A DNA stretch of 64,000 nucleotides, taken from the NCBI RefSeq assembly GCF_003334305.1, contig NZ_QOWS01000002.1; one strand, 5' to 3'. The stretch is from Escherichia coli (GTDB taxonomy: Bacteria; Pseudomonadota; Gammaproteobacteria; Enterobacterales; Enterobacteriaceae). Shown here piece after piece: positions 32,001 to 35,000 of this stretch (position 1 is its first letter; every line of letters starts with the position of its first letter). The position numbers were made by a program.

Positions 32001-35000
32001 AATGGCGACGAAGGTTACCACCCACACCCACGGCGGCACTTCCGGGAAGAGGGCGGAGAGATAGATTTTCGCCAACAAAACGTTGATCATCGGCAAAAAG
32101 AGATAATCCAGCAGTGATGACCAGCCGACCATAAATCCGACGTGCGGGTTAATCGACTTTTGCGCGTAGGTATAGGCCGAACCGGCCTCCGGAAACTGGC
32201 GAACCAGTTTGCCGTAGCTGATAGCGGTAAACAGCACGCCCGCCAGCGCTAGCAAATAGGACGCCGGAACGTGACCGTCGCTAATGCCTGACACAATGCC
32301 AAAAGTATCGAACACAGTCATCGGCGTGAGATAGGCCAGACCCATCATTACCACCTGCCACAATTTCAGTGATTTTCGCAGACGGGTTTTGCCGGGTTGC
32401 GCAGCAATATTCAGTGGTGAATTAATAGCCATAATTGCTGCCTCCCCTGCGTAATAAGGTTTGCGGTCGTGTCGACCTGAAATCAAACCTGTTTAGCAAG
32501 GGAAGCAAAGGGGGCGGAGTCCAGTCAGTAGCAGGAGGGGCGCATACGCAGCCTCCCTCGCCATGCGGGGATTTAATCATCGGCATCATCTCATTTCCTC
32601 GTCACAGTCTTAATCGTTAACGGAAGCCCGTTGCCGCCTGCGCTCCATAACGCGACATCCGGGAAATGTCTGGATTACCAGCAAATGTCAGGCCTGGCTC
32701 CGCTCAGGCCGATGAAACACCCCCGCAAGGGGAATTACGCGTTTTTCAACATCCACTCAATTTCTGTTTCTGTGATGAGGCGCTCAAACTGCAACAGCTC
32801 ATCATTTTTACAGGCGTGATACACATGGCAAAACCGTTCGCCTAAATAGCGGCGCAGGTGATCATTCTCGATAAACTCACCCAGGGCATCGCTCTGGCGA
32901 ATCGGGAAGGGTAAGCCTTCCTGTTCCAGCCCGTTGCCTTCGACTTCTTCCTGCAACGGCAGCTCGTTATCAAGGCCATGCAAAATACCGGCAAAAATCG
33001 CTGCCATCACCAGATATGGGTTGGCATCGGCACCCGCCACGCGATATTCCACGCGGTGATTATGACGGTCGCCGCACGGAATACGCAGGGCGACGGTGCG
33101 GTTGTTATGGCCCCACGACGCCTGCGTCGGCACATACATTCCCGGCTGGAAGCGGCGATACGAGTTCACGTTTGGTGCCAGCAACGCCATCGACGACGGC
33201 ATCAGGTCAATCATCCCGGCGAGCATCTTTTTCAGCAGCGGCGAATCTTCGCCTTCCGCGTCAGAAAGCACGTTCTCGCCACGGTTATTTTGCATACTGA
33301 TATGGATATGCATTCCGCTGCCCGCGTGCTCTTCATACGGCTTCGCCATAAAAGTGGCGTGCATCTTATGCTTTTCTGCCATCAGACGCACCAGGCGTTT
33401 TAGCGCCAGCGCATCATCGCAGGCTTCCAGCACGTTATCGGTATGGTAAAGGTTGATTTCAAACTGACCCGGCGAGGCTTCGGCGACCGCACCGTCGGCG
33501 GGAATTAACTGTAACTGCGCCAGTTCATCAATATCATTGAGCACATCGGCGAAGTGGTTGAGGTTATCAACGGAGTAAACCTGGCTTTGTGTATTGCGGT
33601 CATCGGTGCCGGGCGCGCAGGGCGGTTGCAGATACCCTTCAGCGTCGCGCTGACGATCCAGTAAATAGAACTCCAGCTCTACCGCTACAACCGGGAACAA
33701 TCCGCGCTGGCGTAGCTGCTGCCACAGGCGGTTAAGAACGTTCCGCGGCTCAACGTCAAAGGGAGCGCCATCTTCATCGACCATGGTCAGGAGCATCTGA
33801 CCGATAAACTCTGGATCGGCGGCAGAAGGGGTTAAGGAACCGAGAACAGGAACACAAGTACGATCCGGCTCGCCCATTTCCTGACCCAGACCCGCTTCTT
33901 CTACTACGTTGCCCAGAATATCCATTGCAAACACCGAGGCCGGGAAATAACACCCTTTCTCCAACTTCTTCAGGCTTGAAACAGGGATACGTTTTCCACG
34001 GAAGCAACCATTCAAATCAGTAAGTAAAACATCAACATATTGCGTATTCGGGTAGCGCTCCAGGTAGCGTTTCACTTCCTGCGTAAAGGCGCTACCCCGC
34101 CTCTCTTCTGACTGCTGAACAAAGTTCTCTACTTCAACGATATTGGTTTCCATGATTCTTCGCCTTTGGTTTGTTTTCCGCTCGTTATCAAAGCGTAAAA
34201 TATAATGACCACCATTCGAATCTGTATGCAAACTAAATGTTTGTCAAATGTTAAATTGAGTTTGCAAAAATGAAAACCCACTGCTAGATTGAAAAAATAT
34301 TGAACATAAAGGTCATTTAAACCGCAGTAATGGCGATAATTTAGTCCACTTTGTGAGATTGAGCATGGAAAATATAATGAACAATCCGGTTATCGGTGTC
34401 GTAATGTGCAGGAACAGGCTTAAGGGTCATGCGACCCAGACTCTGCAAGAAAAGTACCTGAATGCCATCATCCACGCAGGCGGCTTGCCAATTGCGCTAC
34501 CACATGCGCTGGCGGAACCGTCATTACTTGAACAACTTTTGCCGAAACTCGATGGCATTTATCTTCCTGGTAGTCCCAGCAATGTGCAGCCGCACCTATA
34601 TGGTGAAAACGGCGATGAGCCTGACGCCGATCCCGGGCGTGATCTTCTGAGCATGGCGTTAATTAATGCCGCACTCGAAAGGCGCATCCCCATTTTCGCC
34701 ATCTGCCGGGGTTTACAAGAACTGGTGGTGGCAACCGGTGGTTCGTTGCATCGCAAGCTGTGCGAACAGCCTGAATTGCTGGAACATCGGGAAGATCCCG
34801 AACTGCCGGTGGAACAGCAATATGCACCGTCGCATGAAGTTCAGGTTGAAGAGGGGGGATTACTGTCTGCGTTGTTACCTGAATGTAGCAACTTTTGGGT
34901 AAACTCTCTACATGGACAAGGGGCGAAGGTCGTTAGCCCACGGTTGCGTGTTGAAGCTCGCTCGCCGGATGGCTTAGTTGAGGCGGTTAGCGTCATCAAT

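What the first reader, a model, noticed from the sequence alone, without database searches (positions are those of the whole stretch)
34154..34364. Divergent puuA-puuD control region with PuuR-box-like AT-rich repeats
The 211-bp AT-rich spacer between divergent puuAP and puuDRCBE contains at least two 15-mers close to the PuuR recognition sequence as I recall it (AAAATATAATGACCA at 34197-34211 and AAAATATTGAACATA at 34294-34308). The repressor gene puuR lies within the same cluster, giving a compact autoregulated catabolic module.
Basis: partly seen in the sequence, partly recalled or inferred. Interest (0 to 1): 0.25.

Follow-up and report, generated by a model that had tools for sequence, protein, structure and literature searches.

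The report
Known PuuR operator region, puuA–puuD
This is the well-studied control region between the divergent E. coli putrescine-breakdown genes puuA and puuD, carrying the binding boxes of the repressor PuuR (encoded just downstream) plus an ArcA site; it is real but already known and ordinary.

Summary
The window is E. coli chromosome. The 211-bp, 66% A+T spacer at 34154-34364 lies between divergent puuA(P) and puuD-puuR-puuCBE. Both quoted 15-mers are at the stated coordinates. The first (34197-34211) is one mismatch from the PuuR box as I recall it (AAAATATAATGAACA). The second is delimited 2 nt out of register; the real box is 34292-34306 (AAAAAATATTGAACA, 2 mismatches). It also missed a conserved fourth candidate at 34331-34348. 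These are the only three matches with 2 mismatches or fewer in the 64 kb, and 20,000 local shuffles never gave two. All four blocks are conserved across 58 orthologous loci from about 20 enterobacterial genera. They recur in Serratia paralogous loci that were not used to build the matrix. The central conserved block (34226-34268) is the published four-repeat ArcA site, which places the puuD transcription start near 34296, under box 2. Published work (Nemoto 2012, as summarised by later papers) already describes four PuuR motifs here, release of PuuR by putrescine, and autoregulation. Verdict: interpretation supported, already known, low interest. One small addition: the boxes fit an 18-bp imperfect palindrome (TGG-N12-CCA).

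The parts
34154..34364 (.). puuA-puuD divergent intergenic control region (211 bp, 66% A+T)
   Evidence: Spacer length is 210-213 bp in 40 of 58 orthologous loci.
34197..34211 (+). PuuR box 1, AAAATATAATGACCA (18-mer frame 34194-34211, CGTAAAATATAATGACCA). It lies in the puuA promoter-proximal or leader region.
   Evidence: 1 mismatch to the consensus. AATATAATG and CCA are at least 90% conserved over 59 sequences. PWM score 20.1 bits.
34226..34268 (+). ArcA-P four-direct-repeat site, ATGCAAACTAAATGTTTGTCAAATGTTAAATTGAGTTTGCAAA. It contains TGTTT/TGTTA repeats 11 bp apart. It also contains TTGACA on the minus strand (34248 to 34243), TTGCAT on the minus strand (34231 to 34226) and TTGCAA on the plus strand (34263-34268), all candidate -35 elements.
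   Evidence: The identical 43-mer is listed as the puuD ArcA site, at -70 to -28 of the puuDR start, in the supplement of PMC3798270. It is the most conserved block of the spacer. Inverted repeat I1 spans 34227-34238 and 34255-34266.
34263..34291 (+). Inferred puuD promoter: -35 TTGCAA (34263-34268), 17-bp spacer, -10 TAGATT (34286-34291) preceded by C at 34284 (sigma-S-like CTAGATT). Transcription start at about 34296.
   Evidence: The start is back-calculated from the ArcA site position of -70 to -28. CTGCTAGATTGA is nearly invariant in orthologs. The hexamer assignment is my inference. puuA and puuD are reported to be rpoS-dependent.
34292..34306 (+). PuuR box 2, AAAAAATATTGAACA (18-mer frame 34289-34306). 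It covers about -4 to +11 of the puuD start.
   Evidence: 2 mismatches. 21.1 bits. AAATATTGAAC is at least 90% conserved.
34331..34348 (+). Candidate PuuR box 3, TGGCGATAATTTAGTCCA (TGG-N12-CCA frame), in the puuD 5' leader.
   Evidence: ATAATTTAGTCCA is conserved. In Serratia its 3' end reads GAACA, as in boxes 2 and 4. It is a poor match to the 15-mer, with 9 mismatches by my own count, so it remains a candidate. It lies within the short PpuuD fragment that PuuR still repressed 6.9-fold.
34369..34383 (+). PuuR box 4, AAAATATAATGAACA, an exact consensus (18-mer frame 34366-34383, TGGAAAATATAATGAACA). It lies inside puuD codons 2-7.
   Evidence: 0 mismatches. 21.3 bits. Codon 4 is the rare ATA in 58 of 58 orthologs, against 6.6% of Ile codons elsewhere; codon 3 is AAT in 51 of 51 Asn cases, against 27% elsewhere. 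Both 'full-length' biosensor promoter fragments were designed to include it.
32735..34153 (-). puuA, glutamate-putrescine ligase
31047..32432 (-). puuP, putrescine/H+ symporter, downstream of puuA
34365..35129 (+). puuD, gamma-glutamyl-GABA hydrolase
35156..35713 (+). puuR, the repressor (HTH_3 residues 13-66, Cupin_2 residues 111-178)
35863..39935 (+). puuC, puuB and puuE, the remaining pathway genes
   Evidence: The puuC start was recalculated because of a 15-bp indel relative to strain AR_452.

Best explanation
This is the native control region of the E. coli putrescine-utilisation (Puu) cluster.

PuuR is an XRE-type helix-turn-helix plus cupin repressor encoded two genes to the right. It binds an array of four A+T-rich boxes: 34197-34211, 34292-34306, the candidate 34331-34348, and 34369-34383.

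- Box 1 sits at or over the puuA core promoter or early leader.
- Box 2 sits over the puuD transcription start (about 34296).
- Boxes 3 and 4 sit in the puuD leader and first codons.

An occupied array therefore blocks RNA polymerase in both directions. When putrescine rises it binds the cupin domain and PuuR leaves the DNA. puuAP and puuDR(CBE) are then transcribed. Because puuR is in the puuD operon, the circuit is negatively autoregulated.

Between boxes 1 and 2, a four-direct-repeat ArcA-P site overlaps the -35 regions and adds anaerobic repression.

Basis of each step:
- Shown here: the positions of the boxes, their statistical excess, their conservation, the gene identities and the PuuR domains.
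- Taken from the literature: PuuR binding, the putrescine response, ArcA binding, and the start site from which 34296 is back-calculated.
- Inferred: the exact hexamers, the puuA start, and the status of box 3.
For: Identity of the locus: 100% match to E. coli chromosomes with puuA and puuD annotated.

Boxes:
- locate them.
- The three strong boxes score 20-21 bits, against 17.4 for the next best in the 64 kb.
- No local shuffle out of 20,000 gave two or more such sites.

Conservation:
- 58 orthologous loci keep the puuA / puuD-puuR arrangement.
- The conserved blocks fall exactly at boxes 1-4, the ArcA core and the -10.

Independent loci: Serratia paralogous puuA2 / puuR2 loci, and Rahnella and Pantoea loci, have their top matrix hits clustered in the corresponding spacer. 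The sequence was read.

DNA-level constraint on box 4: the ATA and AAT codons are invariant.

PuuR domains: HTH_3 at 9.6e-15 and Cupin_2 at 1e-18.

Literature:
- PuuR binds the spacer, there are four motifs, and putrescine releases it (PMC9951944).
- In a heterologous host, repression was 36-fold with the 34154-34402 fragment and 6.9-fold with 34221-34364.
- The PuuR repressor and the ArcA and FNR sites are described in PMC9397018.
- The ArcA ChIP-seq site has the identical 43-mer, and ArcA represses puuA 15.3-fold and puuDR 10.6-fold (PMC3798270).
Against: - The primary paper (Nemoto et al. 2012, J Bacteriol 194:3437) could not be read. The consensus string is therefore from my memory, and the published footprint coordinates were not compared with my boxes.
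- Box 3 matches the 15-mer poorly and rests on conservation plus the TGG-N12-CCA frame only.
- Part of the conservation of box 4 is confounded by coding, and by the general 5'-end preference for A/T-rich codons.
- The puuA start site is unresolved. There are two candidate -35 elements, and Park et al. list 'no TSS' for puuA.
- The fold-repression data come from Corynebacterium, not E. coli.
Confidence: 0.93

Rival explanations
1. The repeated 15-mers are not operator sites. They would be promoter elements (each strong box contains TATAAT or a near copy) or a chance by-product of an A+T-rich spacer.
For: Boxes 1 and 4 contain a perfect TATAAT. The consensus scan flags TTGTGA-16-TATAAT at 34351-34378, but with 1 hit against 1.1 expected. 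The spacer is 66% A+T.
Against: Dinucleotide-preserving shuffles of the same A+T-rich stretch never gave two such sites. Conservation extends beyond the hexamer to the G(A/T)(A/C)CA tail and is in register at all boxes. Box 4 lies downstream of the mapped puuD start. The literature reports PuuR binding here.
Confidence: 0.03
2. The boxes are bound mainly by another factor, such as ArcA-P, FNR or a nucleoid protein like H-NS, IHF or Fis. PuuR would then act elsewhere in the spacer.
For: ArcA and FNR sites are reported in this spacer. A+T-rich tracts attract nucleoid proteins.
Against: The published ArcA site is the central block 34226-34268, which is distinct from every box. The boxes co-occur with puuR in two independent locus types. 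The motif is not the ArcA direct repeat, nor (from my own knowledge) the FNR TTGAT-N4-ATCAA pattern. No nucleoid-protein prediction was run, so additional binding by such proteins is not excluded.
Confidence: 0.04

Closest known systems
PuuR operator array of the E. coli K-12 puuA-puuD intergenic region (Nemoto et al. 2012, J Bacteriol 194:3437; curated in RegulonDB and EcoCyc)
   Same: It is the same locus, the same genes and the same sequence class. Four motifs are reported in the spacer and PuuR is released by putrescine. The majority consensus of the boxes found here equals the 15-mer I recall from that work.
   Different: Nothing of substance. The window is a non-K-12-identical E. coli strain (100% to AR_452 across the spacer). 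I place one strong box inside puuD codons 2-7 and describe the boxes in an 18-bp symmetric frame. I could not check either point against the original figure.
ArcA-P multi-direct-repeat operators (Park et al. 2013, PMC3798270)
   Same: The central block 34226-34268 is literally their listed puuD four-repeat site, with repeats 11 bp apart.
   Different: This is a neighbouring element that shares the spacer.
Other XRE-HTH + cupin small-molecule repressors, such as Pseudomonas aeruginosa PauR (named as the PuuR orthologue in PMC12645834) and the Vibrio cholerae HTH_3-cupin regulator PDB 1Y9Q
   Same: They share the two-domain architecture (1y9q matches the HTH region at E=1.9e-4). The logic is also shared: ligand binding in the cupin domain lowers DNA affinity.
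   Different: Their operators and regulons differ. No operator comparison was made here.

Membership tests
PuuR operator sites of the puu cluster | Located between the divergently transcribed puuA and puuD | tested here: met
   Box 4 extends 19 bp into puuD.
PuuR operator sites of the puu cluster | Match to the 15-bp PuuR recognition sequence AAAATATAATGAACA (string recalled from memory) | tested here: met
   0, 1 and 2 mismatches at 34369, 34197 and 34292. These are the only such matches in the 64 kb, and none of 20,000 local shuffles gave two.
PuuR operator sites of the puu cluster | Four sites in the region, as reported | tested here: inconclusive
   There are three strong boxes plus one conserved but weakly matching candidate at 34331-34348. 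PMC9951944 states four motifs but gives no coordinates.
PuuR operator sites of the puu cluster | Cognate repressor gene puuR (HTH + cupin) in the same cluster, under the same promoter | tested here: met
   puuR is at 35156-35713, 26 bp after puuD. It has HTH_3 + Cupin_2. The puuDR operon is listed.
PuuR operator sites of the puu cluster | Protected by PuuR in gel-shift or DNase I assays, with binding weakened by putrescine | not testable with these tools
   Known only through secondary citations. The primary paper is not held.
PuuR operator sites of the puu cluster | Conserved with puuR in related genomes | tested here: met
   58 orthologous loci and untrained paralogous loci.
ArcA box (central block) | At least two TGTTA-like direct repeats 11 bp centre to centre, bound in ChIP-seq | tested here: met
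   TGTTT at 34238 and TGTTA at 34249. The identical sequence is listed with ChIP-seq peaks in the PMC3798270 supplement.
Dimeric XRE-HTH operators (inverted-repeat sites) | Two-fold symmetric operator | tested here: met
   The pooled 18-column frequency matrix correlates with its own reverse complement at r=0.82. The column-permutation null is 0.135 +/- 0.18, and 0 of 5000 permutations reached the observed value. There is a single sharp symmetry centre. The oligomeric state of PuuR was not tested.

The most novel reading that the evidence does not exclude
The functional PuuR operator may not be the asymmetric 15-mer in current use. It may be an 18-bp imperfect palindrome, TGG-nn-AAWA|TWWT-nn-CCA, bound by a PuuR dimer.

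Four such sites lie at 34194, 34289, 34331 and 34366. The first three are in helical phase, with spacings of 95 and 42 bp (about 9.0 and 4.0 turns).

The last site is embedded in the puuD start codon and codons 2-7. That would be strong enough to fix a rare ATA codon across Enterobacterales, and to survive deletion of puuD in a Serratia paralogous locus.

A 2025 paper states that the PuuR site shows no palindrome and that there is no evidence for a dimer.
Probability: 0.4. Interest if true: 0.2.

Novelty: already known. Interest (0 to 1): 0.1.

Why it matters
The region matters as a textbook example of a compact, autoregulated catabolic switch, and it is already used as a putrescine biosensor part. 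Nothing here changes that picture.

The practical value of this check is corrected coordinates. For any motif matrix or sensor design, the second box starts at 34292, not 34294. The best box lies inside the puuD coding sequence. A fourth candidate lies in the leader. The ArcA site sits between the promoters.

The symmetric 18-bp description, if confirmed, would improve PuuR site prediction in other genomes.

Tried and rejected
- Nemoto et al. 2012 could not be read by DOI or PMC id. A full-text search for the 15-mer string found no paper. The consensus string therefore rests on my memory, plus its identity with the majority consensus of the boxes.
- The supplement of PMC12645834 is not held.
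- The generic promoter/terminator scan gave 1 promoter-like hit against 1.1 expected, which is uninformative.
- The Rfam scan of 33900-34600 gave only a sub-threshold CRISPR-DR57 hit (17.5 bits against a gathering score of 39, E=0.63). This is chance, so there is no known RNA element in the leaders.
- I looked by eye for an FNR TTGAT-N4-ATCAA site and found nothing better than 6/10. The reported FNR site was not located.
- I tried to fix the puuA promoter. TTGACA (34248 to 34243) followed by a weak CAGATT, and TTGCAT (34231 to 34226) followed by CATTAT inside box 1, are both possible. The second fits the conservation pattern better, but the question was left unresolved.
- Minus-strand 15-mers in the central block, with 5 mismatches each at 34238 and 34249, were considered as the fourth PuuR site. 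I set them aside because that block is the published ArcA site.

Full report
**Identity of the locus**

A 1.4-kb stretch around the finding is 100% identical to many complete E. coli chromosomes and is present in 4372 of 5426 of them. RefSeq annotation of one identical strain, transferred to window coordinates and checked against the ORF list and translations, gives these genes:
- puuP 31047-32432 (-)
- puuA 32735-34153 (-)
- puuD 34365-35129 (+)
- puuR 35156-35713 (+)
- puuC 35863-37350, puuB 37352-38632 and puuE 38670-39935 (+)

The flagged interval 34154-34364 is therefore exactly the spacer between divergent puuA and puuD. It is 211 bp long and 65.9% A+T, against 48.6% for the window.

**Checking the observation**

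I scanned for the PuuR recognition sequence as I recall it from Nemoto et al. 2012 (AAAATATAATGAACA). That paper is not held and no held paper quotes the string. The scan found three outstanding matches, all on the + strand:
- 34197-34211, AAAATATAATGACCA, 1 mismatch
- 34292-34306, AAAAAATATTGAACA, 2 mismatches
- 34369-34383, AAAATATAATGAACA, 0 mismatches

These three are the only matches with 2 mismatches or fewer in the 64 kb. At 3 mismatches or fewer there are 7 matches against 2.0 expected, and 0 of 100 shuffles reached 7. In 20,000 dinucleotide-preserving shuffles of the A+T-rich local stretch 34154-34400, none had two sites with 2 mismatches or fewer. The majority consensus of the three boxes is itself AAAATATAATGAACA. 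That fits my recollection, but it also means the statistic is partly circular, so independent evidence was needed.

**Independent evidence from other genomes**

A scan of one genome per species with the PuuR protein returned 80 loci. In 58 of them, puuA and puuD-puuR are arranged as in E. coli. The genera include Escherichia, Pseudocitrobacter, Klebsiella, Raoultella, Citrobacter, Enterobacter, Lelliottia, Buttiauxella, Cedecea, Trabulsiella, Yokenella, Pluralibacter, Franconibacter, Hafnia, Serratia, Erwinia and Pantoea. The spacer is 210-213 bp in 40 of the 58 loci.

The alignment of the 59 distinct spacers shows conservation concentrated in discrete blocks:
- box 1 (AATATAATG.CCA)
- a central block, 34235-34270
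- CTGCTAGATTGA, 34281-34292
- box 2 (AAATATTGAAC)
- ATAATTTAGTCCA, 34336-34348
- AATATA...ACA in puuD codons 3-7

The sequence between these blocks is poorly conserved.

A position matrix built from boxes 1, 2 and 4 scores the three E. coli boxes at 20.1-21.3 bits. The next best hit in the window scores 17.4. Applied to loci that did not contribute to the matrix, its top hits again cluster in the spacer upstream of puuR. Those loci are the Serratia paralogous loci, where puuA faces puuR directly, and the Rahnella and Pantoea loci. The L064 sequence was read.

**The box inside puuD**

Codon 4 of puuD is ATA in 58 of 58 orthologs, although ATA makes up only 6.6% of Ile codons in the rest of puuD and puuA. 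Codon 3 is AAT in all 51 loci where it encodes Asn, against 26.6% AAT elsewhere. The flanking residues vary (MENIMNNP, MENIMYKP, MGNIFDKP and others).

In the Serratia paralogous locus, puuD is gone. Its start, ATGGGCAATATATTTTCCA, survives at the head of a 42-codon ORF that overlaps the puuR start.

Primer sequences in the supplement of a PuuR biosensor paper map the 'full-length' puuD and puuA promoter fragments to 34154-34402 and 34154-34389. Both include this box. The short puuD fragment maps to 34221-34364, which holds boxes 2 and 3 only. PuuR repressed the full puuD fragment 36-fold and the short one 6.9-fold in Corynebacterium.

Together these results make box 4 a real part of the operator. 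The caveat is that 5' coding regions favour A/T-rich codons anyway.

**The fourth site**

The literature states that the spacer holds four PuuR motifs. The conserved block 34331-34348 (TGGCGATAATTTAGTCCA) is my candidate. It matches the 15-mer poorly. It does share an 18-bp TGG-N12-CCA frame with box 4 (TGGAAAATATAATGAACA, 34366-34383). In Serratia its tail changes to GAACA, as in boxes 2 and 4. I rate it as likely but unproven.

**What lies between the boxes**

The central block is the published ArcA site. The supplement of Park et al. 2013 lists ATGCAAACTAAATGTTTGTCAAATGTTAAATTGAGTTTGCAAA as a four-direct-repeat ArcA site for puuD. This is U00096.2 1359005-1359047, which equals window 34226-34268. 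They place it at -70 to -28 of the puuDR start, with ChIP-seq peaks, and report 15.3-fold (puuA) and 10.6-fold (puuDR) ArcA repression.

This puts the puuD start near window 34296. It fits an inferred -35 TTGCAA (34263-34268), a 17-bp spacer and a -10 TAGATT (34286-34291) with an upstream C. That is a sigma-S-like -10, in line with the reported rpoS dependence of puuA and puuD. Box 2 then covers about -4 to +11. Boxes 3 and 4 lie at about +36 to +53 and +71 to +88.

The puuA start is not resolved. There are two candidate -35 elements on the minus strand, TTGACA (34248 to 34243) and TTGCAT (34231 to 34226). The conservation pattern favours the latter, with a -10 inside box 1. With either one, box 1 overlaps the core promoter or the first transcribed bases.

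**The regulator**

puuR encodes a 185-residue protein with HTH_3 (residues 13-66, 9.6e-15) and Cupin_2 (residues 111-178, 1e-18). Only the HTH part has sequence relatives among solved structures.

Papers summarising the primary work say that PuuR binds the puuA-puuD spacer at low putrescine and dissociates at high putrescine. They also say that it represses puuAP and puuDRCBE, including its own gene.

**Mechanism**

PuuR occupies an array of boxes that brackets both divergent promoters, and it occludes or roadblocks RNA polymerase. Putrescine binding to the cupin domain releases it. Because puuR follows puuD by 26 bp in the same operon, the loop is negatively autoregulated. ArcA-P, and reportedly FNR, superimpose oxygen control.

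Binding, the ligand response and ArcA occupancy come from the literature. Positions, conservation and statistics were shown here. The hexamers, the puuA start and box 3 are inference.

**A small addition**

I pooled the distinct variants of the four blocks in an 18-bp frame. The resulting frequency matrix correlates with its own reverse complement at r = 0.82. The column-permutation null is 0.135 +/- 0.18, and 0 of 5000 permutations reached the observed value. There is a single sharp symmetry centre between positions 9 and 10.

The operator thus looks like an imperfect palindrome, TGG-nn-AAWA|TWWT-nn-CCA, as expected for a dimeric XRE-type protein. A 2025 paper states that the PuuR site shows no palindrome.

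Start-to-start spacings are 95, 42 and 35 bp, so boxes 1-3 are in helical phase. This is suggestive, not shown. A+T-rich motifs are prone to apparent symmetry, and box 3 contributed few gap-free variants.

**Verdict**

The element is an already characterised regulatory region of a model organism. It is of low interest apart from the corrected coordinates and the symmetric-operator suggestion.

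Noticed in passing
The rare Ile codon ATA at codon 4 is invariant in 58 of 58 orthologs and AAT at codon 3 in 51 of 51, while neighbouring residues vary.
   Followed up: yes
window 34226-34268: The most conserved block of the spacer is the published four-direct-repeat ArcA site. It is also framed by a 12-nt inverted repeat, TGCAAACTAAAT / ATTGAGTTTGCA (34227-34238 and 34255-34266, 92% complementary). The arms of that repeat coincide with mirror-image -35-like hexamers for the two divergent promoters.
   Followed up: partly
L064 3877-4004 (Serratia inhibens; same in L057-L074 paralogous loci): There is a second puu-like locus in which puuA faces puuR with no puuD. The puuD start with its PuuR box (ATGGGCAATATATTTTCCA) is kept as a 42-codon ORF whose stop overlaps the puuR ATG (CTATGA). 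It could be a remnant or a leader peptide.
   Followed up: partly
window 33600-35000: The puuA-puuD region is absent from 1054 of 5426 complete E. coli genomes, and six matches are on plasmids. The cluster is therefore accessory within the species.
   Followed up: no
window 35714-35862 (puuR-puuC spacer): There is a GC-rich palindromic, REP-like element (GCCGGGTAAGCGCAATGCGCCC...) with a 15-bp indel and several substitutions relative to strain AR_452. So the window is not that strain, even though the puuA-puuD spacer is identical.
   Followed up: partly
window 8155-8169 (-) and 3908-3922 (-): The next-best PuuR-matrix hits are TAAAAATATTGTGCA (17.4 bits) and AGTAAATAATGAACA (16.4 bits). By collinearity with AR_452 (not verified base by base), they would lie between cysB and ymiA and at the yciN start. 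They are probably chance.
   Followed up: no
window 34351-34378 (+): There is a promoter-like TTGTGA-16-TATAAT (10/12) whose -10 is the TATAAT inside box 4. The number of such hits is not above the shuffle expectation.
   Followed up: no
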